Of a DNA stretch of 58,539 bases, positions 47,341 to 58,539 are shown one piece after another. The notes beneath the pieces were generated by a model. The model did not search any database and was not told the origin of the DNA. It was given only the letters and a program-made list of their open reading frames with translations. Position 1 is the first letter of the stretch. Each line of letters begins with the position of its first letter. This DNA is from an uncultured Gammaproteobacteria bacterium (lineage in GTDB: Bacteria; Patescibacteriota; Patescibacteriia; Patescibacteriales; UBA12465), in contig CAYPAP010000003.1 of NCBI GenBank assembly GCA_964408775.1, positions 47,615 through 106,153 of the forward strand, written 5' to 3'. A program made the translations under genes and the position numbers.

Positions 47341-47448
47341 TTTTTCTCAGCTAATTAATTGAACTCAAAAATAGACCGACGAAGAGACCAATCATATTGT
47401 CCTAGAATACAATTTATTGTTTCAAGGATGATACTTAAAAAAACTTAT

Positions 47449-50400
47449 ATGACAAAATTACGCAAATTTTTCGTATCTTCTGTCATGGTAATGACTGTAG
47501 TTGTTATGAGTGGTTTAACTGCTCCTATGGCTACAAATGCTGCTGCTTCTGCAGGTGACCTGATTAAAAAAGATGGTCTTTCAGCTGTTTATTACTTAGG
47601 CGAAGATGGAAAAAGATATGTGTTCCCGAACGAATCTACTTACAAATCATGGTACAGTGACTTCTCTGGAGTTGTTACTGTTTCTGCTGATGAATTAGCT
47701 AGCTACCCATTGGGCGCTAACGTAGTAGTTCGACCTGGAACATTCTTAGTTAAAATTACAACCGATCCTAAAGTATACGCTGTTGAATCTAACGGTACTT
47801 TAAGACACGTACAAACTGAAGCTGACGCTATTGCTCTATACGGTGCTAACTGGGCACAAAGAGTAATCGACGTAGCTGATTCTTTCTTCACAAATTATAC
47901 TATTGGAACTCCTTTGGCTTCTAACGAAGTACCAGAGGGAACTTTAGTACAAAAAAGTGGTGAAGGAAATATTTATTACTATGATGGCACTGATTATCGT
48001 CTAATTGAAGACGAAGTTGCTTTCTTAGCTAATAGATTCCAATTCGGACATGTTATTACTTACAATAACTTCACTGCTAGTGGTTCAACAATCACAGGTG
48101 CTGAAGCTGGTATCACTAAGACTTCACAAAGTGGTGCTACTGGTCCAGTTGTGACTGGCTCAGGTTTGGTGGTTAGCTTAAGTTCTAATACCCCAGCATC
48201 TCAAAATATTCCTAGTGGGTCTTCAGTTGAATTTTTAAAATTCAACATGACAGCTGCTAATGATGGTCCGGTTAATGTTTCAAGCATTAAATTGACTGCT
48301 GATGGTCTAAGTGACGCTCAAAACATTGATTCTGTTACTTTTTACGATGGTAATATGAAAATTGGCACCTCTAAGAATATAAATTCTGACAGAGAAGCTA
48401 TTTTTAATTTTGCTAATCCTATTTATGTAGCAGCTGGTACAACTAAAACTTTAACTGTCAAAGCTACTATTGCTGTTAATACTGGAACATACGGACTAGG
48501 TATTGTCAGCGCTTCAGATATTATTTCTTCTGGCGCTACTGTAACTGGATCATTCCCTATAAATAGCAACTTAATGTCTGCTGTTTCTGCTTCGCTGGGT
48601 ACACTGCAAGTAACTAGTGCTACTGCGATCACAAACACTGTAAGCTTTGGTGAGGACAACGTTTTATTATCAGAATTTGCCCTAAGAGCTGGCAGTAATG
48701 AAGATGCGTTACTACAATCAATCACTCTATATAACAGCGGTACAAACTCTAATGATATCGTTGATAATCTAAAATTGATTATTGATGGTGAAGAAGTTTC
48801 CACTGGTGTATATGCTGATCGTTATGTAACCTTCACTCTAAACAATTATAAAATTGAAAAGAGTGATACTATTTCAGTTGAAGTGAGAGGTGATATTGGC
48901 ACAACCAGTAATAATGATACCATTAAGATGTATATTAAGGAATCTCTTGATGTAGTTGCTGTTGGTGCAACCCATGGCTTTGGTTTAACACTTACTAATA
49001 CTGTGTTAAATTCTGCCATTTCAACTGTTACCATTCAAACTGGTGATTTTTCCATTGATATGGACAAGGCGATTACTCCAGCTAGAGATGTAAAAGCTGA
49101 CACTAAAGATGTTGTTTTAGCTACTATTAAAATGACTTCAAATGGTGAAAATGCTACTCTAACTGGTATTGCTAATACTGGTTTTTATGTAACTTATGGA
49201 ACTGGAACTACTACTCAAATGTTAGAAAATGTTAAATTGGTGGATAAATCTACTGGTGGTATTTATGACTTAACTGCTGCCACATCTTCAACTTCTACTC
49301 AGCTAACATTAGATGATGAAATTTCATTAGTTAAAGGAGTTACCAAAACCTTTGAACTTAAGGCTGATATTTTAACTGCTGCTCCAGAAAATCAAACTTT
49401 TGCGGTTACTTTAGCAGGATCTGCTATGACTATCGAAGGGGATGTCTCTGGTGCAAATATTTCTAATATTACTCCAAGTTCAGTTACTGGATCTATTATT
49501 ACTGTTAAAGCTGCTTCCTTAACTGTTACTCCAACTGCCTTGGTTTCTACCAATGTTGTTGGTGGTGCTAACAGTGTTATTGTTTATCAGGCTAAAGTAA
49601 AGGCTGGTACAGCAGATGGTGTTAAGATTCAATCTGTAAAATTAACTTCAGCTACTAGTTCAGCTGCCACTTCTGCTTTTACAGATAATAATATAACCAA
49701 GTTAAGCTTGTGGTTAAATGGCAAGTTGTTGAAAGAAGTTTCTAATCAAATTGCTAATGATTCAACCACAACTAATGGAACTATCACTTTCAGTTCATTG
49801 AATACTGCTAATTATACTATTCCTGCTGGGATGGAGTATGATCTAGTAGTAATGGCTGATTTTGCTTCAAGCTTAATCGCTGGTGACTTTAAATTGAAAG
49901 TAGATGCTCCTGCTGATTGGACAGTTAGATCTGTTGATGGAAATAAAGTAGTTACCCCAAATGACGGTGATGCAACTTCTAGAGTTGTCACTGCTGCAAC
50001 CAAGGGAACATTAACTGTTTCATTGGTTACTACTGACTCTAAGGCTAGTCGTGATTCATATGTTTTAGCTGGCTCTGAAAGTGAGGCTGGTCGTTATCTT
50101 GGTGAACTGAAGTTCGTTACCGCTAAAGAAGCTATTAAAGTAGAAACTTTGACTTTAACTGCAACTTCAAGCTCTTCAGCTTTTAATGACGATATTGAAT
50201 CAATCAAATTGGTAACTGCTGATGGAGTTGTTATTGCCAGCGCTAATGTTACTTCTGCTGGGCATGCAACATTTGATCCTTTTAATGTAGTATTTGACGC
50301 TGATAAATCAACATCATTATTCATCGCTGTTGAGGCAAAGGGTATTAATGTTAATGAGGATCCAACATCTACAGCTGACCATGGTGATCACATCACCTAT

Positions 50401-51000
50401 GCTCTAGGCGCTGTTACTGCTAAAGGAAATCTTTCTGGGGAAACTATCAATGTTACAAATAGCGGAGGCGTTTCTAAGAAGGCTACTATTGTTGGCTCTA
50501 AATTAATATCTATTACCAATGCTATGTCAGATGGAACCTTAACTGGCGGCACAGGTAAAATATTAGGTAAGTACACTCTTGTCTTCGATAATGGTGTTAA
50601 CAGAGATAATGCTAATGAAGCTATGAAAGCTGCTTTATCAAGCATTAAGATAACTTTCTCTAACACTGCAACTGTAACTGCTCCTTACTTATACATCGAA
50701 GGTCATGCTTCAAATAAAGCAACCTCAACTGGTGTTGTGAGTGGAAGTGTTACGTTTACAGATAATCTAGCTAACTTAGTAGATAGCGGAGAAATTGACG
50801 GATCTGTTACTATAGTAGTTGCTGGTCAGGTTACTACATCTGGTGAAAACCAATATGTACAAACTTCATTAGCTTCTTTAGGAGGTGACGTTCAATATTA
50901 TGTTGACGTTGATAATAGCTCAGCATCAAATGGAAGTGAGTCTATTACTTCAATGTTGATTAATGTTAACGATGTTAATGGAGCTACTTTGAGTAACTAG
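47449..51000 (+). CDS. Giant secreted surface (S-layer-like) protein with an N-terminal triple repeat module and ~6-7 Ig-like beta modules
   Basis: Signal peptide MTKLRKFFVSSVMVMTVVVMSGLTAPMATNAAAS. T/S/A/G/V/N-rich. By my reading there is no Cys after the signal peptide. ATG 47449 is preferred over the TTG 47359 ORF-track start. Strong terminator downstream. Confidence 0.7.
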   Translation: MTKLRKFFVSSVMVMTVVVMSGLTAPMATNAAASAGDLIKKDGLSAVYYLGEDGKRYVFPNESTYKSWYSDFSGVVTVSADELASYPLGANVVVRPGTFLVKITTDPKVYAVESNGTLRHVQTEADAIALYGANWAQRVIDVADSFFTNYTIGTPLASNEVPEGTLVQKSGEGNIYYYDGTDYRLIEDEVAFLANRFQFGHVITYNNFTASGSTITGAEAGITKTSQSGATGPVVTGSGLVVSLSSNTPASQNIPSGSSVEFLKFNMTAANDGPVNVSSIKLTADGLSDAQNIDSVTFYDGNMKIGTSKNINSDREAIFNFANPIYVAAGTTKTLTVKATIAVNTGTYGLGIVSASDIISSGATVTGSFPINSNLMSAVSASLGTLQVTSATAITNTVSFGEDNVLLSEFALRAGSNEDALLQSITLYNSGTNSNDIVDNLKLIIDGEEVSTGVYADRYVTFTLNNYKIEKSDTISVEVRGDIGTTSNNDTIKMYIKESLDVVAVGATHGFGLTLTNTVLNSAISTVTIQTGDFSIDMDKAITPARDVKADTKDVVLATIKMTSNGENATLTGIANTGFYVTYGTGTTTQMLENVKLVDKSTGGIYDLTAATSSTSTQLTLDDEISLVKGVTKTFELKADILTAAPENQTFAVTLAGSAMTIEGDVSGANISNITPSSVTGSIITVKAASLTVTPTALVSTNVVGGANSVIVYQAKVKAGTADGVKIQSVKLTSATSSAATSAFTDNNITKLSLWLNGKLLKEVSNQIANDSTTTNGTITFSSLNTANYTIPAGMEYDLVVMADFASSLIAGDFKLKVDAPADWTVRSVDGNKVVTPNDGDATSRVVTAATKGTLTVSLVTTDSKASRDSYVLAGSESEAGRYLGELKFVTAKEAIKVETLTLTATSSSSAFNDDIESIKLVTADGVVIASANVTSAGHATFDPFNVVFDADKSTSLFIAVEAKGINVNEDPTSTADHGDHITYALGAVTAKGNLSGETINVTNSGGVSKKATIVGSKLISITNAMSDGTLTGGTGKILGKYTLVFDNGVNRDNANEAMKAALSSIKITFSNTATVTAPYLYIEGHASNKATSTGVVSGSVTFTDNLANLVDSGEIDGSVTIVVAGQVTTSGENQYVQTSLASLGGDVQYYVDVDNSSASNGSESITSMLINVNDVNGATLSN

Positions 51001-51083: not shown

Positions 51084-51269
51084 ATTTCAGCCTCTTGCTT
51101 TTAAAAAATTTACCTAAAAATTATTATTTCTTTAAAAAGAATTTATCCCTTTTTTGCTAATATTTTTATTATCTAATAATTAATAAAAATATTAAAGATT
51201 GATTAGAAAAATTAATAAGATTTCTATTGATGATTTTGAGGTTATAAAGAATAAAATAAAAGAGTTTCT

Positions 51270-51337
51270 ATAAAAAAACGACTCCTGCTTCAAAAAAGCA
51301 AGAGTCTCGGAGTTGCATTAATATGCGAACCAATTAT
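51270..51337 (-). ncRNA. Candidate ~68-nt sRNA 'E'
   Basis: Downstream of the minus-strand promoter ttgtat-N17-tatagt (51344-51372). Contains a gcat-atta-atgc hairpin. Ends in a gactcttgctt/aagcaggagtc terminator plus T-run. Confidence 0.45.
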
Positions 51338-51372
51338 GTTTTTACTATAGCAAATTTTTCCAGAAAATACAA

Positions 51373-51565
51373 GGGCAAAAAATACTTAATTATATTAGTA
51401 ATATCTGGTTGTACGAAAAAATCGTACAACTGATTTAAATAAAAAAAAGAGAATGGCGCAACTATCCGGAATTTCCGGACAGTTGGACTTAAAGGTATAA
51501 ATATTTATAGAAAATAAAATAATCTTTCAGCATGCTGTAATTCCCAGCCTACTGAAAAATATTGA
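51373..51565 (+). repeat. Island repeat segment (copy 1) with strong hairpins
   Basis: ttaattatattagtaatatctggttgtacgaaaaaat and tcagcatgctgtaattcccagcctactg recur at 53350-53423. Hairpins gttgtacga/tcgtacaac (51408-51430) and caactatccgga/tccggacagttg (51459-51485). Confidence 0.8.
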
Positions 51566-51576
51566 AAAATAAGCGC

Positions 51577-51605
51577 TTGCTTTTTTATAAAAAATTTGCT
51601 ATAAT
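51577..51605 (+). promoter_or_regulatory. Reiterated island promoter P1 (TTGCTT-N17-TGCTATAAT)
   Basis: The 46-nt block aaaaataagcgcttgcttttttataaaaaatttgctataatattaa is identical at 52310-52355. Related copies lie at 54950-54978 and, degenerate, at 51092-51122 and 53039-53068. Confidence 0.75.
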
Positions 51606-51611
51606 ATTAAC

Positions 51612-51733
51612 AGTGATATTTGTGAGGACATTTGTTCTCTCGCGGTCAAGTTAAAACTGCAGACAAATATCATGACAAAAGAAGTTTTTAGTCGCATCTC
51701 AAGTCTCCCTCGTGGAAGACTTTTTTTGTTTTT
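51612..51733 (+). ncRNA. Candidate sRNA family 1, copy A (~120 nt), antisense to the 3' end of the 167-aa gene
   Basis: Closing stem gatatttgt/acaaatatc, inner stem gcggt/actgc, and the aagtctccc...ggaagactt terminator plus T-run. Homologous to 53075-53193. Overlaps CDS 51688-52191 by ~46 nt. Confidence 0.55.
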
Positions 51734-52191
51734 CTTGAGATTGAACAATTTTTCTTCTTCCAGAAAGGTATAATACTCCAAAAATAGGGGTTATTATTTT
51801 CTATTTTTTTAACTATTATTTTTAATCTTACCTTATCAATAATAGCTATAAAAGCAAAATAAGTAACCCTTTTTTCTTTTTCTTTCCATTCTCCTGATAT
51901 TTTTATTTTTTCTATATTTTCTGACTTCTGAATTTCTTGAAGGGTATGAGACATTTTTATTATTAATGGTGCTAGCTGAATAAATTTTAATCTTATATAT
52001 TGATCATTTTTTGGTCTAGATTTATTCCAAGACTTCATTTTTATATGAGATAATCCTTTGGCGTTAAAGCTCACCAAGGTTTTTAAATATGGGCAATAAA
52101 CTTTCTCTATATTCTTGTAAAACTCCTCAGCCTCTTCTTTAGTGTTTTTAAAAATATCTTCATTAGTATTTGTCTTATTCCTCATAATCAT
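51688..52191 (-). CDS. Hypothetical 167-aa protein (cassette effector 1; possible small nuclease/toxin-like, unassigned)
   Basis: ORF with a near-leaderless start behind shared upstream block U. K/I/E-rich. The C-terminal beta-rich segment YFAFIAIIDKVRLKIIVKKIENNNPYFWSIIPFW only vaguely recalls small RNase toxin folds (speculative). Confidence 0.55.
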   Translation of the reverse strand: MIMRNKTNTNEDIFKNTKEEAEEFYKNIEKVYCPYLKTLVSFNAKGLSHIKMKSWNKSRPKNDQYIRLKFIQLAPLIIKMSHTLQEIQKSENIEKIKISGEWKEKEKRVTYFAFIAIIDKVRLKIIVKKIENNNPYFWSIIPFWKKKNCSISRKTKKVFHEGDLRCD

Positions 52192-52290
52192 ATTTATTAT
52201 ATATAATTAATTTATTGTATCAGATATGTATTAAATATATTTTAAATTAAGTATAAAAATAATATAAATATTTCAATTATTTGGTAAATA
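52192..52290 (-). repeat. Shared upstream block U, copy 1 (promoter/5' region of cassette effector 1)
   Basis: ~95 bp (atataattaatttattgtatcagatatgtattaaat...aagtataaaaataatataaatattt) nearly identical to 52945-53040. On the minus strand a TATAAT lies ~10 nt before the ATG. Confidence 0.85.
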
Positions 52291-52322
52291 TTAAAAATAT
52301 TAAAAAAATAAAAAATAAGCGC

Positions 52323-52351
52323 TTGCTTTTTTATAAAAAATTTGCTATAAT
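52323..52351 (+). promoter_or_regulatory. Reiterated island promoter P2
   Basis: ttgctt-N17-tataat with TGC extension. Identical to P1. Confidence 0.75.
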
Positions 52352-52357
52352 ATTAAT

Positions 52358-52452
52358 ATACATACGAAGAGGGCCTCAAAACATTGGCTTTGCCTAAGTG
52401 GAGACTCCCTTTTTAACAAAAGCCACTAGTTTTCTAGTGGTTTTTGTTTTTT
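52358..52452 (+). ncRNA. Candidate sRNA family 2, copy B (~95 nt), antisense to the 3' end of the NYN gene
   Basis: 5' catacgaagaggg, stem aagaggg/ccctttt, and terminator gccactag-tttt-ctagtgg plus T-run. Overlaps CDS 52426-52944 by ~27 nt. Homologs on the minus strand at 53213-53303 and 55145-55231. Confidence 0.55.
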
Positions 52453-52944
52453 AATTAATTTTAATTTTATTTTATATAAATAATCAAAATATTTTCTACC
52501 TAATTTTTTATATAAAGAAGATGCATATTTTCTGTTTGGAAATAATATTTTTTCAAACTTATCCTTTTCTATTAAATAATTAACCAATTTAATATAATCA
52601 CCATCACCCGAGATCAAAACTATTTTATTAAATATTTCTTTTTCACAGATTTTTTTCATTGCATCAAATATAATATCACAATCAATATTTCCTTTCTTTT
52701 TGCTGGTCATGGATGACAAATGATTTTTAAATATTATTTTGTAATTGCAATTTTCTAATTTGTTATAGATATTTTGATTTAAAATATCCCTATAGCCTAC
52801 ATAATAATAAACATCTTTAATTTTATATTTTTTCTTTAAGTATTTTCTTAATTTTTTAAAATCAATAACCCAAGGTTCATCTTCTAATTTTGTGCCAATA
52901 TATAAGTTTTGACCATCAATAAAACATAGATTATTTTCTTCCAT
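52426..52944 (-). CDS. NYN-domain (LabA/DUF88-like, PIN-related) putative ribonuclease (cassette effector 2)
   Basis: 172 aa. CFIDGQNLY at the N-terminus, GNIDCDIIFDAM, and LISGDGDYIKLV, which are typical NYN acidic motifs. Confidence 0.75.
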   Translation of the reverse strand: MEENNLCFIDGQNLYIGTKLEDEPWVIDFKKLRKYLKKKYKIKDVYYYVGYRDILNQNIYNKLENCNYKIIFKNHLSSMTSKKKGNIDCDIIFDAMKKICEKEIFNKIVLISGDGDYIKLVNYLIEKDKFEKILFPNRKYASSLYKKLGRKYFDYLYKIKLKLIKKQKPLEN

Positions 52945-53040
52945 AATTATTTATTACATATAATTAATTTATTGTATCAGATATGTGTTAAATGAATTTT
53001 AAATTAAGTATAAAAATAACATAAATATTTTTATTTTCTT
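52945..53040 (-). repeat. Shared upstream block U, copy 2
   Basis: Near-identical to 52192-52290 up to the start codon of the NYN gene. Confidence 0.85.
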
Positions 53041-53074
53041 GTTTTTTTATCTAAAAGTGTATTATAATATTAAC

Positions 53075-53193
53075 AGTGATATTTGTAGGGTCTTGGCTCT
53101 CTCACGGTCTTCTAAAACCGTAGCAAATATCATAATAAAAGAAGTTTTCAGTCAGACTGCAAGTCTCCCTCGTGGAAGACTTTTTTTGTTTTT
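53075..53193 (+). ncRNA. Candidate sRNA family 1, copy C
   Basis: Same closing stem, terminator and 3' tail as copy A. The inner stem is acggt/accgt versus gcggt/actgc in copy A, so the first pair changes from G-C to A-U (compensatory). Driven by the degenerate promoter copy at 53039-53068. Confidence 0.5.
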
Positions 53194-53212
53194 CTTGAGA
53201 TTGAGCAATTTT

Positions 53213-53303
53213 AAAAAAATAAAAACCACTAGAAAAACTAGTGGCTTTTATTAAAGAGGATCCTTTGTATTAAAAAATACTTCGGTGCCTTCTTCGTATG
53301 GAT
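53213..53303 (-). ncRNA. Candidate sRNA family 2, copy C'
   Basis: Minus-strand promoter ttgaat-N17-tatagt (53310-53338). 5' ccatacgaagaagg, stem aagaagg/cctcttt, and terminator gccactag-ttttt-ctagtgg plus T-run. Confidence 0.5.
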
Positions 53304-53338
53304 GTTTTTACTATAGCAAATTTTTCCAGAAAATTCAA

Positions 53339-53480
53339 GAAAAAACTGTTTAATTATATTGGTAATATCTGGTGGTACGAAAAAATATTACAATCAGCAT
53401 GCTAGAATTTCCAGCCTACTGGATTAGGGTGTTTTCGTGGTCCAAGTGTACGAAAAAATCGTACGATTAAAATTTTAGCT
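53339..53480 (+). repeat. Island repeat segment (copy 2)
   Basis: Shares ttaattatattggtaatatctggtggtacgaaaaaat and tcagcatgctagaatttccagcctactg with 51373-51565. Has a second gtacga-aaaaa-tcgtac hairpin near 53448-53464. Confidence 0.8.
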
Positions 53481-53573
53481 TATATTTATCTTTGATTTAT
53501 AAAATATTCATCAAGCTTCTGTTACAATAAATCTAGTTTTGAGTAGTTATATATTTTTTTAAAATAATGAAAT

Positions 53574-53624
53574 AAAAAAACCCATCGGGTTCGCATGAGC
53601 TTTACGGCTTAGAGGCGCGATGGG
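53574..53624 (-). terminator. Terminator-like hairpin on the minus strand (possible end of a short divergent RNA)
   Basis: cccatcg/cgatggg 7-bp stem with a 30-nt loop, followed on the minus strand by ttttttt. Confidence 0.35.
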
Positions 53625-53666
53625 CAACGACTCTCATTGTAATCTATTCTTTCAAAAAACACTATA

Positions 53667-53695
53667 TTGACATATTTTATTTCATAAGCTATAAT
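53667..53695 (+). promoter_or_regulatory. Consensus sigma70 promoter of the toxin-antitoxin operon
   Basis: TTGACA-N17-TATAAT (ttgaca tattttatttcataagc tataat), 30 nt upstream of ATG 53725. Confidence 0.75.
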
Positions 53696-53724
53696 AATGA
53701 TAGCTATTATTTTAATATAATTAT

Positions 53725-54570
53725 ATGATTAATAAAAAATCTTTAGGTAACAAAATTAAGGCTTTAAGAGAGTTCGAAGGAATGAGCCAAGAAGATTTGG
53801 CCCAAAAAGTAGAATTATCCAGAGTGGCCATATCTCAAATTGAACAAGGCAATAGAAATGTTGATTTTTTAGAATTAGCCAAAATAGCCCAAGTTTTTAA
53901 ATTAAAAACCGATTATTTTTTAATAGAGGATGAATTGCCCAATATCAAACCAACAAAAGAACCGAATAAAGCTAATAAGTTTAATCCCAAAAAACTCAAA
54001 AATGTTATTTTGTATATTTTAGAAAAATGTGCGGGGAAGCCAAATGTTGGAGAAACGGTATTGTATAAATTATTGTATTTTATTGATTTTGATAATTTTG
54101 AAATTAATGGTCAATCAATTTCTGGGTTAAACTACATCCATTTGCAATACGGGCCAGTTCCAATGGCTTCTTTGTACTCGCCAGTAATAGAAGAGATGAA
54201 GCTTGGGCAAGAGCTAAAAATTATTATTTCTGATTATTTTGGTTTAAAGATAAAGCGGTATATTAATTTAGTTACTCATGATATTGATTCTTTGTCCCCT
54301 AAAGAAACCAAAGTTATTGATAATGTTATCGGGTCTCTTTCTAATATGTCCGCCTCGCAGATAGAAGAATATTCTCATGGTGATGCTCCTTGGCGGTTGA
54401 CCAGCGAAAAAGAGCTTATTCCATATAATCTTGTTTTTGAGCGTCAATCTCCATATGCCAAAAGAAGCGCTGACGATCTTAGATATTTTAAAATGACTGG
54501 AGCTAGGGATATTTTGAATCAATTAGGCCCTATTTCTAAGGCAGAGTATGATTATTACGAAAATCTATGA
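53725..54570 (+). CDS. XRE-family HTH fused to a DUF4065/Panacea (SocA-like) antitoxin domain
   Basis: 281 aa. HTH MSQEDLAQKVELSRVAISQIEQGNR. The C-terminal KLKNVILYILEK...VLYKLLYFIDFDNF...LQYGPVP is typical of DUF4065. Overlaps the toxin gene by 4 nt. Confidence 0.75.
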   Translation: MINKKSLGNKIKALREFEGMSQEDLAQKVELSRVAISQIEQGNRNVDFLELAKIAQVFKLKTDYFLIEDELPNIKPTKEPNKANKFNPKKLKNVILYILEKCAGKPNVGETVLYKLLYFIDFDNFEINGQSISGLNYIHLQYGPVPMASLYSPVIEEMKLGQELKIIISDYFGLKIKRYINLVTHDIDSLSPKETKVIDNVIGSLSNMSASQIEEYSHGDAPWRLTSEKELIPYNLVFERQSPYAKRSADDLRYFKMTGARDILNQLGPISKAEYDYYENL

Positions 54571-54920
54571 TAATAAAAGGTGAGATTAGTTTTGGCGATA
54601 TTGTTTGGGTTGAATTTGATCCTAGCGCTGGGCATGAATATCAAAGTAAAAGACCAGCGATTGTCGTAGAGTCCAATGAACAACTAAAAAAGAAAAATTT
54701 GGTTACCATAATTCCATTAACCTCACAAAGGGACAATCGTATGCCCGATGATATTTTGGTAGAAGCTAGCAGGGAAAATAATTTAATGTTTGATTCAATA
54801 GCAAAAGTATATTGTATAACATCGTTTGATTATGTGAGATTTGAAAAAGTAATAGGAAAAATTAATAAAGAAGTGGAAATAAAAATCAAAGATTATTTTA
54901 AAAAACATTTTGGTCTATAA
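54567..54920 (+). CDS. PemK/MazF-family endoribonuclease toxin
   Basis: 117 aa. GDIVWVEFDPSAGHEYQSKRPAIVV and IIPLTS are typical MazF/PemK SH3-like fold motifs. Confidence 0.8.
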   Translation: MIIKGEISFGDIVWVEFDPSAGHEYQSKRPAIVVESNEQLKKKNLVTIIPLTSQRDNRMPDDILVEASRENNLMFDSIAKVYCITSFDYVRFEKVIGKINKEVEIKIKDYFKKHFGL

Positions 54921-54949
54921 TAATTTTAATTTAGTGTAGAAATAATCCC

Positions 54950-54978
54950 TTGGTTTTTTATAAAAAATTTACTATAAT
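54950..54978 (+). promoter_or_regulatory. Reiterated island promoter P4 (TTGGTT-N17-TATAAT)
   Basis: ttggttttttataaaaaatttactataat matches P1/P2 apart from a few substitutions. Confidence 0.65.
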
Positions 54979-54984
54979 ATACTT

Positions 54985-55144
54985 GTGCTTGTGAGCGAAG
55001 GCTCCGTTCGGCTAAGCTCTTGTCTAAAGAGCTATAAGCCGAAAGCAAGCACAATATTTACTATCTAGCTTATACCTGTCCCTTCTGTCGCTTCGGCGTC
55101 AGAACGCGAGGTCATTCTTTTATAGGGTGGCCTCTGCTTTTTTT
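54985..55144 (+). ncRNA. Candidate ~160-nt sRNA 'D'
   Basis: 9-bp closing stem ttgtgcttg/caagcacaa, inner hairpin ggctaagctctt/aagagctataagcc, ctgtcgc-ttcg-gcgtcag (UUCG loop), and terminator gaggtca/tggcctc plus T-run. Confidence 0.5.
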
Positions 55145-55231
55145 AAAAAACAAAAACCACTAGAAAAACTAGTGGCCTTTATTAAAGGGTCTCCCTAGGT
55201 AGTTAGCCGTTCGGATATCCCTTCGTATTGC
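55145..55231 (-). ncRNA. Candidate sRNA family 2, copy D'
   Basis: The minus strand reads aatacgaaggga...gggagaccctttaataaaggccactag-ttttt-ctagtgg plus T-run. Stem gaaggg/cccttt. The promoter is less clear (taatat -10 only). Confidence 0.4.
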
Positions 55232-55456
55232 TTGGTTATATTAAATAAAAGAACAACCACGTATACCTTATGGCACGTGGTTGTTCTTTTTTGCTATTGT
55301 CTCGAGATTGATTTTATAAAAAATACTATTTTGAAGATGTCAATTTTTGTCAACTCCCTTTTTTATTATTTTTTATTTTTGAAAGAACGAATAGATAGTT
55401 ATTGTTAAAATCTTTGAGACCTATTGTTTTTAATCTAAGAGCTAAATAGCTATAAA

Positions 55457-55810
55457 TTAATCATCCTTATTATATATCTTCCTGAGCTTCGCCAGTCCTC
55501 GATGAATTTGCACTGAAATTGTTTTTTTGGAACTTCCAGTTATAGCCGAAATCTCTGCTAGAGAAAATTCCTGTAAGTAACGCATTTTGATTACTTTCTG
55601 ATATTTCATAGGAAGTTGAGCAACTAAAAAAATGGCCTGCTCGCCATCTAAAATATCAATCATTTTTTCTGAATTGTCTTCGCTCAGCTCAAACCCCTTC
55701 TTCGCCAGATCTTCTAATGAGATAGTTTTCTTTTTCCGGTACTCATCAATAATTAAGCCCCTCAGGACATGGTAAAGAAAGCTTTTCATGACGTTAACCT
55801 TATTTCCCAA
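55457..55810 (-). pseudogene. N-terminally truncated ECF sigma factor remnant (region 4 plus the tail of region 2)
   Basis: 117 aa. FLYHVLRGLIIDEYRKKK (end of region 2) and FSLAEISAITGSSKKTISVQIHRGLAKLRK (region 4). Regions 2.1-2.3 are missing compared with 45435-46007. Confidence 0.6.
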
Positions 55811-56828: not shown

Positions 56829-58539
56829 ATGAAAGAGGTATTGATACAGGAAAAAGGTATTGAAGGAAACAATAATTCTAAAGACTTAGCTACTCAGGAG
56901 AGAGAATTATTTTTTAATATAGAAAAAAGTAGAGGAGAGTTATCCGAAGAAGATTTTCAATTAATACTAAATAGATTATTTGAGCACTCTGTTGACGATG
57001 CACTCAAATTTTTGAATCAGTTAAATTTAAGCAGAGATCAGTTTGCGAAGGCCTTGGTTAAGCCTTTGTTTTTTATAAAACATCCGAAGATAGCTTCTTG
57101 TTTATTCTCAGAAATAAGTAGTAATGAAAAGTATATAGAAAGAGGAGAGTTATTGGATACAATGAAAGAGGGGGGTAATAATTTTAAAAAAATAGAAAAA
57201 AAAGGATCAGCAATCAGTGATGAATATTATCATCAACAAGATGAATATAAGCAGGCTAGCTACCAAGTTAAAAAATATATCGATAAGATAGATGATTATT
57301 ATTCTGTTTTCTTTGATGTTCAAAAAGATGTTAAATTAGAGGAATCTGGTGAAAAATTTAAAAATGATTTAGTTTTAGATCAAATTTTTTCGTCTAAATT
57401 GGCGCTAGAGAACCATTATTATAGTGGAGAGATATTAAAAATCTTATTTAAAAATTTGATTCATGAAGACTCAAAAAAAATTAGTAAAATAGCTGAAGAG
57501 CAATTTAAAAATAATAGTGATTTACAGGTTAAATACAATTCTGATTTTTCTCGATATTTTAGTGCTCTAGAAAGGGGGTCTGCTCCAAATAGAGATATAG
57601 TTTTAGAATATTTAAAACAAAATAAGGCCTTAGTCCGAGAGATTAAAAATAATAATTTATTGGACCAGGAAACAGTTAATAGTATAGTGGAGCAGTATGA
57701 TTTAGGCGATGTTATTAATAAAAATAGGGTGGACAGGGCTAAGTATAAACCCCTAGGATTGGTTTATAATTTTAGGAAGGAATTGATTGAGAAAAAAATA
57801 ATTAATAAAATTCAGGAATCCTTAAAAAGAAGATTCTCAGGAAGAGATTTGAAAATAATATTAGATCCGGAAAGCGGTTCGTATGTTGTGGATGGTCTAG
57901 ATGATAAAAATAATGAATCTTTAGATAAAAAAGAGTCCAACATTGAGACTGTTCTTTACACTTTCAGCAACAGAATTCGTTTTTCCTTAGAGGAGTTTAA
58001 TATTATTAACAATCAATTCTATTTTAAAGCTAAAGAAGCTGGAAGGCAATTTGTAATCGGACCAAATGGAGAAAAAATTGGTAGCGATTATGATTGGGTT
58101 TGCCCGCCTAAAGACATTAATAGTCAAGTCTATTTTACAGCTCAAGAAGCTGAAAAGCATTTTATAATCGGACCAAATGGAGAAAAAATTGGTGGCGACT
58201 ATGATTTTGTTGGCGAACCTAGAGAGATCAATAATCAAGTTTATTTTAGAGCCCAAGAAGCTGAAAAGCATTTTATAATCGGACCAAATGGAGAAAAAAT
58301 TGGTGGCGACTATGATTTGGTTTATGAGCCTAAAGACATTAATAATCAAGTTTATTTTAGAGCCCAAGAAGCTGAAAAGTGGTTTGTAATCGGACCAAAT
58401 GGAGAAAAAATTGGTGGCGGTTATGATTATGTCAGCGACCCTAAAGATATTAATAATCAAGTCTATTTTAAGGCTAAAGAAGCTGGAAGGCAATTTATAA
58501 TCGGACCAAATGGAGAAAAAATTGGTGGCGACTATGATT
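56829..58539 (+). CDS. Large protein (5' partial view, runs off the window) ending in tandem 37-aa repeats (WG/KWG-repeat-like)
   Basis: The frame is open from ATG 56829 to the window end by my own translation. It is absent from the ORF track because there is no in-window stop. Repeats read YF.AQEAEKHFIIGPNGEKIGGDYD.V.EPKDINNQV. Confidence 0.75.
   Translation, partial: MKEVLIQEKGIEGNNNSKDLATQERELFFNIEKSRGELSEEDFQLILNRLFEHSVDDALKFLNQLNLSRDQFAKALVKPLFFIKHPKIASCLFSEISSNEKYIERGELLDTMKEGGNNFKKIEKKGSAISDEYYHQQDEYKQASYQVKKYIDKIDDYYSVFFDVQKDVKLEESGEKFKNDLVLDQIFSSKLALENHYYSGEILKILFKNLIHEDSKKISKIAEEQFKNNSDLQVKYNSDFSRYFSALERGSAPNRDIVLEYLKQNKALVREIKNNNLLDQETVNSIVEQYDLGDVINKNRVDRAKYKPLGLVYNFRKELIEKKIINKIQESLKRRFSGRDLKIILDPESGSYVVDGLDDKNNESLDKKESNIETVLYTFSNRIRFSLEEFNIINNQFYFKAKEAGRQFVIGPNGEKIGSDYDWVCPPKDINSQVYFTAQEAEKHFIIGPNGEKIGGDYDFVGEPREINNQVYFRAQEAEKHFIIGPNGEKIGGDYDLVYEPKDINNQVYFRAQEAEKWFVIGPNGEKIGGGYDYVSDPKDINNQVYFKAKEAGRQFIIGPNGEKIGGDYD
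58020..58539 (+). repeat. 111-bp tandem coding repeats (at least 4.7 copies, continuing past the window)
   Basis: Units start at 58020, 58131, 58242, 58353 and 58464, with high nucleotide identity. Confidence 0.9.

What the first reader, a model, noticed from the sequence alone, without database searches (positions are those of the whole stretch)
51088..55300. Repeat-built accessory island: cassettes of convergent small RNA and effector gene separated by a reiterated divergent-promoter block
Within 4.2 kb the same promoter (46 nt identical at 51565-51610 and 52310-52355, variants at 54950-54978, and decayed copies at 51092-51122 and 53039-53068) points rightward five times. A second shared promoter (ttgtat/ttgaat-N17-tatagt, at 51344-51372 and 53310-53338) points leftward twice. 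Each fires into a short ORF-less, hairpin-rich, terminator-ended segment. Two of these segments converge on and overlap the 3' ends of two unrelated small genes, a 167-aa unknown and a 172-aa NYN nuclease. Those genes share a ~95-bp near-identical upstream block (52192-52290 and 52945-53040). The layout is [RNA A> <gene167][block][RNA B> <NYN][block][RNA C> <RNA C'], then a Panacea-MazF TA pair, then [RNA D> <RNA D']. This modular arrangement does not match CRISPR, integron attC arrays, classical type I TA (small hydrophobic peptide toxins) or type III TA (tandem RNA repeats on the same strand). It could be an antisense-RNA-controlled nuclease toxin or defence cassette array.
Basis: partly seen in the sequence, partly recalled or inferred. 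Interest (0 to 1): 0.8.

Follow-up and report, generated by a model that had tools for sequence, protein, structure and literature searches.

The report
Small genes paired with convergent structured RNAs
The repeats are real: the island stacks intact and decayed copies of two modules conserved across Patescibacteria, each a small conflict-type protein gene (NYN nuclease or LPD3-like) facing its own uncatalogued structured small RNA, probably an RNA antitoxin or regulator.

Summary
The promoters, terminator-ended ORF-less segments, convergent layout and the shared ~95-nt upstream block are all present and far above chance.

The "RNAs" fall into two families. X comprises RNA A, C and D. Y comprises B, C' and D'. 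Neither matches any Rfam 15 family.

Both families are conserved across Patescibacteria and tied to one protein family each:
- X lies on the opposite strand just 3' of 78 of 78 testable LPD3-like genes. It has strong covariation and its own promoter and terminator.
- Y lies the same way at 79 of 80 NYN genes.

The protein almost never occurs without its RNA. About 20% of Y copies have no NYN gene nearby. Neither module has conserved synteny. About 10% of LPD3/X modules sit inside restriction-modification operons.

The window's island is a lineage-specific pile-up: two intact cassettes (gene167/A, NYN/B), orphaned or decayed RNA genes (C, C', D, D'), and a Panacea-MazF pair. A 96-97% identical relative lacks the C/C' segment.

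The best reading is RNA-antitoxin-like modules, with a geometry like par-type type I toxin-antitoxin (TA) systems but with enzyme-sized proteins and conserved RNA folds. Function is untested.

The parts
51577..51605 (+). Promoter of RNA A (-35 TTGCTT 51577-51582, extended -10 TGCTATAAT ending at 51605)
   Evidence: Sequence. Lies in the 46-nt run identical to 52311-52356. 77/84 X copies elsewhere have such a promoter at this position, against 4.5% of random 48-mers.
51609..51730 (+). RNA A, X family. The three-helix domain is 51609-51688. The terminator hairpin 51701-51722 plus U-run lies inside the last codons of gene167.
   Evidence: CM R1 hit at 74.2 bits, E 1.9e-13. Fold z -2.8. Overlaps the gene167 CDS from 51688.
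51688..52191 (-). gene167: stand-alone LPD3-like protein, 167 aa
   Evidence: 316 homologues. PF18798 LPD3 matches 11 of 25 family members. AF2 model has pLDDT 83 with no PDB fold match. The C-terminal motif KKVFHEGDL is conserved family-wide.
52191..52285 (-). Shared 5' block (promoter and short leader) of gene167
   Evidence: 89% identical to 52948-53042 (D3). Promoter-like CTGATA-16-TATAAT at 52223-52196. Related blocks precede the cassette genes in L009 and L012.
52323..52351 (+). Promoter of RNA B
   Evidence: Identical to the RNA A promoter.
52354..52452 (+). RNA B, Y family. 5' tail CAUACGAAG, a P1 hairpin spanning 52366-52414, then the bidirectional terminator 52415-52448.
   Evidence: CM R2 hit at 31.3 bits, E 0.005, a divergent subtype. 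82% identical to the L009 copy next to NYN-172. Fold z -5.65. Terminators on both strands.
52426..52944 (-). NYN (LabA-like) nuclease gene, 172 aa. Its last 8 codons lie in the terminator hairpin of RNA B.
   Evidence: Pfam NYN 1.2e-18. The acidic residues D10, D88, D90, D114 and D116 are invariant in 27 homologues. Closest solved structure is 2QIP.
52948..53042 (-). Shared 5' block of the NYN gene
   Evidence: D3.
53039..53190 (+). RNA C with its promoter (X family, orphan). Downstream it keeps the last 21 codons and the stop of a lost gene167-like ORF (NCSISRKTKKVFHEGDLQSD*).
   Evidence: CM R1 hit 53072-53148 at 66.1 bits. 83% identical to RNA A over 178 nt. The remnant reading frame was read directly from the sequence.
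53212..53339 (-). RNA C' with its promoter (Y family, orphan). It lies tail to tail with RNA C.
   Evidence: CM R2 hit 53307-53227 at 46.6 bits. Promoter TTGAAT-17-TATAGT with a TG extension. The whole 53043-53631 segment is absent from the 96-97% identical relative L097.
53725..54920 (+). HTH-Panacea antitoxin (53725-54570) and MazF toxin (54567-54920), a type II TA pair with a 4-nt gene overlap
   Evidence: Pfam SocA_Panacea 2.3e-20, HTH_3 1.5e-12, PemK_toxin 8.4e-21. NCBIfam MazF.
54950..55143 (+). RNA D with its promoter (divergent X subtype, orphan). The X domain is 54978-55070, followed by lineage-specific hairpins and the terminator 55108-55134.
   Evidence: CM R1 hit at 35.1 bits, E 1.7e-4. 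82% identical to the RNA that converges on a 161-aa gene167 paralogue in L012. Homology with L097 stops at 55054.
55146..55236 (-). D': Y-family remnant with no promoter of its own
   Evidence: CM R2 hit 55236-55158 at 45.3 bits. 78% identical to the L009 Y copy, which does have a promoter and an NYN-165 partner.
51272..51372 (-). RNA A' with its promoter: a terminator-ended segment of neither family and with no partner gene
   Evidence: Promoter 97% identical to that of C' (D8). Terminator 51306-51280. No R1 or R2 hit.

Best explanation
The island is a local accumulation of two independent two-gene modules found across Patescibacteria. In each module a small conflict-type protein gene faces its own short structured RNA gene, tail to tail. 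The NYN ribonuclease pairs with RNA Y. The LPD3-like protein of unknown activity pairs with RNA X.

Proposed mechanism. A strong constitutive extended -10 promoter produces the RNA in excess. The RNA ends at a terminator that is shared with the partner mRNA or embedded in its 3' end, so the two transcripts are complementary there. Pairing and/or convergent transcription keeps the protein's expression low. The conserved folded domain, which lies outside the overlap, gives the RNA its stability or binds the cognate protein. The RNA therefore acts as an antitoxin or restrainer, and the module behaves like an addiction or defence cassette.

In this window two cassettes are intact (gene167/A, NYN/B). 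The others (C, C', D, D') are antitoxin-like RNA genes left behind after their protein genes were deleted.

Shown here: the repeats, the two RNA families, their structure, strand, promoters and terminators, the strict linkage, the orphan asymmetry, the lack of synteny and the indel between close relatives.

Inferred, not shown: transcription itself, toxicity of the proteins, neutralisation by the RNA, and whether this works by base pairing or by protein binding.
For: Linkage:
- X is found at 78 of 80 LPD3-like loci from different species. The other 2 lack downstream DNA. X is always on the opposite strand, within -16 to +38 nt of the stop codon.
- Y is found at 79 of 80 NYN loci.
- Cross-controls: 0 Y hits in 437 kb of LPD3 loci, and 2 X hits in 389 kb of NYN loci. 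One of the two (L159) has its own LPD3 gene. The other (L097) is an orphan copy of the RNA D subtype.

Structure of X: 97.4% of cells are paired against 87.5% in shuffles. There are 99 double-change cells against 34.8 (0 of 500 shuffles reach this). Slid controls give 33-55% paired.

Strand: 97.4% paired on the strand antisense to the gene, against 87.6% on the gene strand.

Own transcription signals:
- Promoters sit upstream of 77/84 X and 66/77 Y copies, against about 4.6% of random 48-mers.
- A T5+ run follows within 70 nt in 82/84 X copies.

Asymmetry: of 120 exact Y matches in GTDB genomes, 87 have a convergent NYN gene, 2 have a truncated NYN, 2 have NYN 176-217 nt away and about 22 have none, yet these keep their promoters.

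Mobility and conflict context:
- No neighbour family occurs in more than 6/80 (NYN) or 11/80 (LPD3) loci.
- The commonest LPD3 neighbours are an R-M methylase, an R-M specificity subunit and an S24 peptidase.
- GC falls to 21-28% in the island.
- The C/C' segment is an indel between 96-97% identical relatives.

Paralogue specificity: in L009, NYN-165, the gene167 homologue and NYN-172 each have their own RNA variant.

NYN activity: the catalytic acidic residues are invariant. A stand-alone bacterial NYN is a sequence-nonspecific Mn-dependent ssRNA nuclease (Chi and White, 10.1101/2024.04.08.588522).

Precedents: par of pAD1 has convergent promoters and a shared bidirectional terminator (PMC7472228). 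SymE and RalR are enzymatic type I toxins (PMC8167048).
Against: - No expression or toxicity data exist.
- Overlap with the coding sequence is not conserved. In distant X loci a separate terminator ends at the stop codon, and in several Y subtypes the RNA stops before the stop codon. A purely antisense mechanism therefore cannot explain the conserved folds.
- Y's conserved 5' tail is not complementary to the NYN start region.
- Both proteins are unusually well conserved for toxins: about 50% identity across classes and 67% mean column identity for NYN.
- No homologues were found on IMG/VR viral contigs.
- Covariation support for Y is modest, and the strand test for Y is weak at 90.0% against 86.6%.
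Confidence: 0.5

Rival explanations
1. Ribonucleoprotein partner rather than antitoxin. X and Y are cofactors, scaffolds or dedicated substrates of the LPD3-like and NYN proteins. They would form a working RNP, for example in RNA processing or nucleic-acid sensing, and the proteins would not be toxins.
For: RNA sequence and fold are highly conserved across classes, as expected for protein-binding RNAs. The folded domains lie outside the overlap. There is no complementarity to the start region. The proteins are strongly conserved. RNA subtypes follow protein paralogues.
Against: A cofactor has no obvious need for the universal tail-to-tail geometry with a shared terminator. About 20% of Y copies persist with intact promoters where no NYN gene is nearby, as do the orphan copies in this window. 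The lack of synteny and the defence-island contexts fit selfish modules better.
Confidence: 0.22
2. Type III-like sequestration only. The RNA neutralises the protein purely by binding it, and the convergent arrangement is incidental.
For: The same structural conservation arguments apply. The asymmetry of orphans fits any RNA antitoxin.
Against: The defining type III layout is absent: tandem repeats upstream of the toxin on the same strand, processed by a ToxN-like toxin (PMC8167048). A convergent, stop-codon-adjacent geometry in 157 of 158 testable loci is unlikely to be incidental.
Confidence: 0.13
3. Generic genome furniture. The blocks are repeated promoter/terminator or MITE-like elements, or transcriptional insulators, with no specific relation to the neighbouring genes.
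For: The promoter consensus is generic. The same 30-nt pattern precedes gyrB in another Patescibacterial MAG, and other TTG-N17-TGnTATAAT promoters occur elsewhere in the window. Y's P1 hairpin with its flanking A and U runs looks like a bidirectional terminator.
Against: The RNA bodies are family-specific and strictly tied to one protein family each, with clean cross-controls. X shows compensatory changes in three helices. The copies are usually single per locus rather than dispersed.
Confidence: 0.05
4. DNA-level recombination sites (integron attC-like) or sense-strand 3'-UTR elements of the protein genes.
For: The elements lie at the 3' end of cassette-like genes. Cassettes are gained and lost between relatives.
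Against: No integrase gene is present in the island: none of its ORFs matched one. Sequences are conserved across phyla together with the gene, unlike attC sites. G-U pairs favour the strand antisense to the gene for X. Dedicated promoters and U-run terminators lie on that strand.
Confidence: 0.03

Closest known systems
par (Fst/RNA II) type I toxin-antitoxin system of Enterococcus pAD1 and its relatives
   Same: [quoted passage not shown] Y's hairpin, flanked by an A-run and a U-run, and the tail-to-tail geometry look the same.
   Different: The par toxin is a 33-aa membrane peptide. Here the proteins are 160-172 aa soluble enzyme-type proteins. par has direct repeats that pair with the translation start region, and no such complementarity was found here. 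X and Y have conserved folded domains outside the overlap.
Type I systems with enzymatic toxins (SymE/SymR, RalR/RalA of E. coli) and 3'-overlapping Bacillus systems (txpA/RatA, bsrG/SR4; the Bacillus examples are cited from my own knowledge)
   Same: A protein nuclease toxin is controlled by a cis-encoded antisense RNA (PMC8167048). In the Bacillus systems the overlap is at the 3' end.
   Different: SymR overlaps the 5' UTR. None of these RNAs is a phylum-wide conserved structured family. The protein families are unrelated.
Type III toxin-antitoxin systems (ToxIN, CptIN, TenpIN, AbiQ)
   Same: The toxin is an endoribonuclease-type protein and the antitoxin is a structured RNA that is specific for its cognate protein.
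   Different: Type III antitoxins are tandem repeats upstream of the toxin on the same strand, under one promoter, and are processed by the toxin (PMC8167048). Here there is a single-copy RNA with its own promoter on the opposite strand. NYN and LPD3 are not ToxN-like.
Panacea-MazF type II toxin-antitoxin pair (the 53725-54920 part only)
   Same: An HTH-Panacea antitoxin gene overlaps a MazF/PemK toxin gene by 4 nt.
   Different: Nothing notable. This part of the island is an ordinary known kind.

Membership tests
Type I toxin-antitoxin | A cis-encoded antisense RNA is complementary to the toxin mRNA | tested here: met
   In the window, RNA A overlaps about 43 nt of the gene167 CDS and RNA B overlaps about 27 nt of the NYN CDS. 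Elsewhere the overlap is limited to the shared terminator or 3' UTR.
Type I toxin-antitoxin | The toxin is a small (under about 60 aa) hydrophobic peptide | tested here: not met
   The proteins are 167 and 172 aa: an NYN nuclease and an LPD3-like alpha/beta protein. Known exceptions are SymE and RalR (PMC8167048).
Type I toxin-antitoxin | The protein is toxic and the RNA prevents its synthesis | not testable with these tools
   Needs expression and rescue assays.
par-like (Fst/RNA II) subfamily | Convergent promoters and a shared bidirectional intrinsic terminator | tested here: met
   Promoters were found at 66/77 Y and 77/84 X copies. Terminators lie on both strands at 52415-52448 and 53218-53252. 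The Y consensus is a hairpin between an A-run and a U-run.
par-like (Fst/RNA II) subfamily | A second pairing site (direct repeats) covers the toxin's translation start | tested here: not met
   The longest duplex between the Y 5' tail and NYN positions -60..+30 averages 6.7 nt, against 7.2 nt for control regions.
Type III toxin-antitoxin | The antitoxin is a tandem array of RNA repeats upstream of the toxin on the same strand, separated from it by a terminator | tested here: not met
   The RNA is single-copy, has its own promoter and lies on the opposite strand downstream of the gene.
Type III toxin-antitoxin | The RNA binds and inhibits the toxin protein directly | not testable with these tools
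   Needs co-purification, EMSA or a structure.
Any Rfam 15 RNA family | A match to a curated covariance model | tested here: not met
   There was no gathering-threshold hit in the island. At E up to 10 only weak hits far below gathering appeared, and none was credible for the X or Y bodies. No hit at E up to 1 fell on the X or Y positions of seven consensus-like loci.
Integron gene cassettes (attC) | An integrase and attC sites with R''/R' core sequences at cassette 3' ends | tested here: not met
   No integrase is encoded in the island. No GTTRRRY/RYYYAAC cores appear in the X or Y consensus (by inspection). The elements have promoters and terminators on the antisense strand.
NYN (PF01936) nucleases | A Pfam match above the gathering score, with conserved acidic active-site residues | tested here: met
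   68.4 bits against a cutoff of 24.2. D10, D88, D90, D114 and D116 are invariant.
LPD3 (PF18798) | A Pfam match | tested here: inconclusive
   The window protein itself has no hit at E up to 0.1. 11 of 25 close family members match, with a best E of 5e-7.
Panacea-MazF type II TA | A Panacea-domain antitoxin gene adjacent to or overlapping a PemK/MazF toxin gene | tested here: met

The most novel reading that the evidence does not exclude
X and Y are two new classes of protein-binding structured RNAs. Each forms a specific complex with its convergently encoded partner (LPD3-like protein or NYN nuclease). Together they would define a new class of RNA-protein conflict module in Patescibacteria. 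In this class a single-copy structured RNA with its own promoter both shares a terminator with the effector mRNA and sequesters or licenses the effector protein. That is neither classical type I nor type III. It would also give the first functional handle on the LPD3 domain of phage and plasmid polyvalent proteins.
Probability: 0.3. Interest if true: 0.85.

Novelty: new variant of a known kind. Interest (0 to 1): 0.75.

Why it matters
Patescibacteria (CPR) have tiny genomes and almost no characterised regulatory RNAs.

This work points to two RNA families that are absent from Rfam. Both are conserved across the phylum and each is locked to one protein family. One partner is a predicted non-specific ribonuclease. 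The other is a domain known only as an unexplained component of phage and plasmid 'polyvalent' proteins.

If the RNAs restrain these proteins, RNA-antitoxin systems would extend to enzyme-sized effectors with structured cognate RNAs. This would explain a recurrent accessory cassette in CPR genomes.

It would also provide compact RNA-protein pairs that can be tested directly in E. coli. The strict linkage gives a ready genomic marker for annotating both the RNAs and the modules.

Tried and rejected
- Rfam at gathering and permissive thresholds, on the window and on seven consensus-like loci, gave nothing for X or Y.
- tRNA and tmRNA scans found none in the island.
- The promoter pattern scanned in GTDB genomes gave only 5 hits. 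One precedes gyrB and one precedes an HTH gene, so the promoter is generic and was useless for finding relatives.
- The exact-sequence look-up of gene167 found nothing on record.
- L001, L002 and L003 are the same or nearly the same strain and gave no useful variation.
- A Foldseek search of the LPD3-like model against PDB gave no match (best E 0.37). A profile search of PDB sequences gave nothing.
- PADLOC, NCBIfam and PHROGs gave nothing for gene167 and only a weak PADLOC NYN hit.
- No homologue of either protein was found in viral contigs.
- I looked for remnants of the L012 RhuM and 23S_rRNA_IVP genes in the window. None was significant.
- I tested a par-like second pairing site at the NYN start. 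It was not enriched.
- A hammerhead-like reading of the X junction was rejected by inspection and by the lack of any Rfam hit.
- Literature searches for a prior description of NYN or LPD3 with an RNA partner in Patescibacteria found none in the held library. This is not proof of absence.
- The single metagenome scan was not used, because the genome collection had already given enough.

Full report
**1. The observation**

- The rightward promoter is repeated. A 46-nt run is identical at 51565-51610 and 52311-52356.
- A 2-mismatch copy lies at 54949-54978 and a looser copy at 53039-53068.
- The 30-nt consensus matches three times in the window, against none in 100 shuffles.
- The two leftward promoters (51344-51372, 53310-53338) are 97% identical over 38 nt. 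They are the same promoter type in the other orientation (inverted repeats I6, I7, I10).
- Terminator-like sites are five-fold enriched: 11 against 2.0 +/- 1.6.
- Every ORF-less segment folds better than its shuffles, with z from -2.8 to -5.9.
- gene167 (51688-52191, minus) and the NYN gene (52426-52944, minus) are each overlapped at the 3' end by a convergent segment.
- Both genes are preceded by an 89%-identical 95-nt block.
- The Panacea-MazF pair is real.
- The island has 21-28% G+C, against about 34% elsewhere in the window.

**2. The segments form two families**

Self-comparison and alignment group the segments.

- X family: RNA A and RNA C, which are 83% identical over 178 nt.
- Y family: RNA B, C' and D'. 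They share a 5' CAUACGAAG tail, a stem with a variable interior and the terminator AAAAGCCACUAG...CUAGUGGUUUUU.
- RNA D later proved to be a divergent member of X.
- D' has no promoter.
- RNA C is followed by the last 21 codons and the stop codon of a gene167-like reading frame, with no gene attached. C and C' are therefore leftovers of decayed cassettes.
- RNA A' (51337->51272) belongs to neither family.

**3. The promoter is generic, but the RNA bodies are not**

A scan of one genome per species found the promoter pattern upstream of gyrB in another Patescibacterial MAG. TTG-N17-TGnTATAAT promoters also occur elsewhere in the window. By itself, promoter similarity therefore says little.

**4. 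Relatives**

Both proteins have hundreds of homologues, almost all in Patescibacteria.

- gene167 belongs to a tightly conserved family. Eleven of 25 members match Pfam LPD3.
- LPD3 is a domain of unknown function found in phage and conjugative-element polyvalent proteins (PMC5512222).
- An AlphaFold model of gene167 (pLDDT 83) has no PDB fold match.

Two related metagenome contigs show the same cassette logic.

- L009 carries NYN-165, a gene167 homologue and NYN-172 in a row between tyrS and a methyltransferase gene. Each NYN faces a Y RNA and the gene167 homologue faces an X RNA.
- L012 is syntenic with the window, next to the large surface-protein gene. It carries a 161-aa paralogue facing an RNA D-type RNA and a 162-aa orthologue facing an X RNA.

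**5. Phylum-wide linkage**

I fetched 80 loci from different species for each protein.

*X family*
- The region 3' of the LPD3-like gene, read on the opposite strand, aligns into a three-helix RNA.
- 97.4% of cells are paired, against 87.5% in shuffles.
- There are 99 double-change cells against 34.8 (0 of 500 shuffles reach this).
- Slid controls give 33-55% paired.
- A covariance model finds X at 78 of the 80 loci. The other two end 25-29 nt after the gene.
- X is always on the opposite strand, with its 3' end -16 to +38 nt from the stop codon.
- G-U pairs favour that strand: 97.4% paired against 87.6% on the gene strand.
- 77 of 84 copies have a sigma-70-type promoter directly upstream, against 4.5% of random 48-mers.
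- 61 of 84 have an extended -10 element, against 0.7%.
- 82 of 84 have a T5+ run within 70 nt downstream.

*Y family*
- The consensus is AUCAAGACGAAAAGGGAUCCGAACGGUUAACUACCUAAGGAGCCCUUUUCUUUU.
- Y is more conserved in sequence than X and shows less covariation: 90% paired against 84.5%, and 41 double-change cells against 14.7.
- The Y model hits 79 of 80 NYN loci.
- 66 of 77 copies have a promoter at a fixed distance, against 4.7% of random 48-mers.

*Cross-controls*
- Y has no hit in 437 kb of LPD3 loci.
- X has two hits in 389 kb of NYN loci.
- The L159 hit lies beside an LPD3 gene. The L097 hit is an orphan copy of the RNA D subtype.

Neither X nor Y matches any Rfam 15 family, even at consensus-like loci.

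**6. Evidence that bears on function**

(a) *Asymmetry.* The proteins are essentially never found without their RNA. Of 120 exact Y matches in GTDB genomes:
- 87 have a convergent full-length NYN gene.
- 7 lie too near a locus end to judge.
- 2 lie next to a truncated NYN gene.
- 2 have NYN 176-217 nt away.
- About 22 have no NYN within the 8-kb locus but keep good promoters.

The window itself has two or three orphan X and Y genes.

(b) *No conserved synteny.* The commonest neighbour family occurs in 6 of 80 NYN loci and in 11 of 80 LPD3 loci. For LPD3 the commonest neighbours are an R-M methylase, an R-M specificity subunit and an S24 peptidase. In L019 the methylase gene overlaps the LPD3-like start by 4 nt.

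(c) *Turnover.* A 96-97% identical relative (L097) lacks window 53043-53631, the C/C' segment. Its homology with RNA D stops at the end of the X domain.

(d) *Overlap with the coding sequence is not conserved.*
- In near relatives the X terminator lies inside the codons for KVFHEGDL.
- In distant relatives a separate terminator ends at the stop codon.
- Y subtypes likewise end before or after the stop codon.
- The folded domains therefore cannot be explained by antisense pairing with the CDS.

(e) *No second pairing site.* Y's conserved 5' tail is not complementary to the NYN start region.

(f) *The NYN protein looks active.* Its acidic active-site residues are invariant. A stand-alone bacterial NYN is a non-specific Mn-dependent ssRNA nuclease (10.1101/2024.04.08.588522).

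(g) *Not phage-borne.* Neither protein was found on IMG/VR viral contigs.

**7. Interpretation**

The island is a lineage-specific stack of two widespread modules, their decayed copies and an ordinary type II TA pair. Normally the two modules are not neighbours.

Several observations fit RNA-antitoxin-like addiction or defence cassettes best:
- the geometry (convergent promoters, with a terminator shared with or embedded in the partner's 3' end);
- the strong RNA promoters;
- the pattern of the protein never lacking its RNA, while the RNA sometimes lacks the protein;
- the mobility of the modules;
- the defence-island contexts.

The closest mechanistic analogue is par of pAD1 (PMC7472228). SymE and RalR are precedents for enzymatic toxins (PMC8167048).

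The modules fail defining features of classical type I systems (peptide toxin, pairing at the start region). They also fail those of type III systems (tandem same-strand repeats, ToxN-like toxin).

The conserved folds outside the overlap point to an additional role, most simply binding the cognate protein.

My probabilities are:
- about 0.5 that the RNA restrains its partner, leaving open whether this works through 3'-end pairing, transcriptional interference or some added protein binding;
- about 0.22 that X and Y are RNP cofactors or substrates of non-toxic proteins;
- about 0.13 that pure protein sequestration, type III-like, is the whole mechanism;
- under 0.1 for generic repeats or DNA-level sites.

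Transcription, toxicity and neutralisation are all inferred, not shown.

**8. Novelty**

I found no description of these RNA families, or of an NYN or LPD3 RNA partner, in Rfam 15 or in the searchable literature.

I class the finding as a new variant of a known kind (RNA-antitoxin-type modules). It includes two apparently uncatalogued RNA families.

Noticed in passing
window 58005-58539: A tandem repeat of 111 nt (37 codons), 4.8 copies at 86% match, runs off the end of the window. In L001 and L002 the array continues. It is probably a repeat-domain protein gene.
   Followed up: partly
window 51409-51431, 53373-53393, 53446-53470; L012 5697-5720: The hairpin GTACGAAAAAATCGTAC recurs three times in the island and once in the syntenic island of L012. 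A 28-nt repeat TCAGCATGCT..CCAGCCTACTG lies at 51527-51554 and 53394-53421 (D13 and D14). Function is unknown.
   Followed up: no
window 53570-53660 (minus strand): A leftward terminator-ended segment (terminator 53592-53578) lies just upstream of the perfect TTGACA-17-TATAAT promoter of the Panacea gene at 53667-53695. It might be a divergent small transcript. One end of the indel relative to L097 falls inside it, at 53631/53632.
   Followed up: partly
L019 523-5325, and 8-11 of 80 LPD3 loci: The LPD3-like/X module sits between an R-M methylase (N6_Mtase plus HSDR_N_2) and a Methylase_S specificity gene, with an S24 peptidase gene upstream. The methylase stop overlaps the LPD3-like start by 4 nt.
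   Followed up: partly
L104 3072-3142, and similar loci L103, L113, L115, L118, L120, L150, L162: In one clade the NYN/Y module lies directly next to tRNA genes. In L104 a tRNA is confirmed immediately upstream of the Y promoter on the same strand, and the other loci show the same tRNA-like 3' end sequence.
   Followed up: no
L005 669-698: The island's promoter consensus (CTTGGTTTTTCTTGAAAAATTTGCTATAAT) precedes gyrB in an unrelated Patescibacterial MAG. This suggests a strong promoter optimum for these bacteria, with an A-tract spacer and an extended -10.
   Followed up: partly
L012 5739-5879 (minus strand): A 46-aa strongly hydrophobic ORF (MLLRYLGKILTTILIALIILNIFILSSVAVLTG...) lies between the two cassettes of the syntenic island. 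It looks like a type I-toxin-like peptide and is absent from the window.
   Followed up: no
window 55457-55810 (minus strand): A 117-aa protein has only sigma-70 region 4 and a vestige of region 2. It is followed by a bidirectional terminator at about 55245-55290.
   Followed up: no
window 47359-51000; L012 8335-11763: A large (1142-1213 aa) Ser/Thr/Val-rich secreted-looking protein gene flanks the variable island, both in the window and in the related organism. The island content differs between them: 161-aa and 162-aa LPD3-like genes, 23S_rRNA_IVP and RhuM in L012. The site therefore looks like an insertion hotspot.
   Followed up: partly
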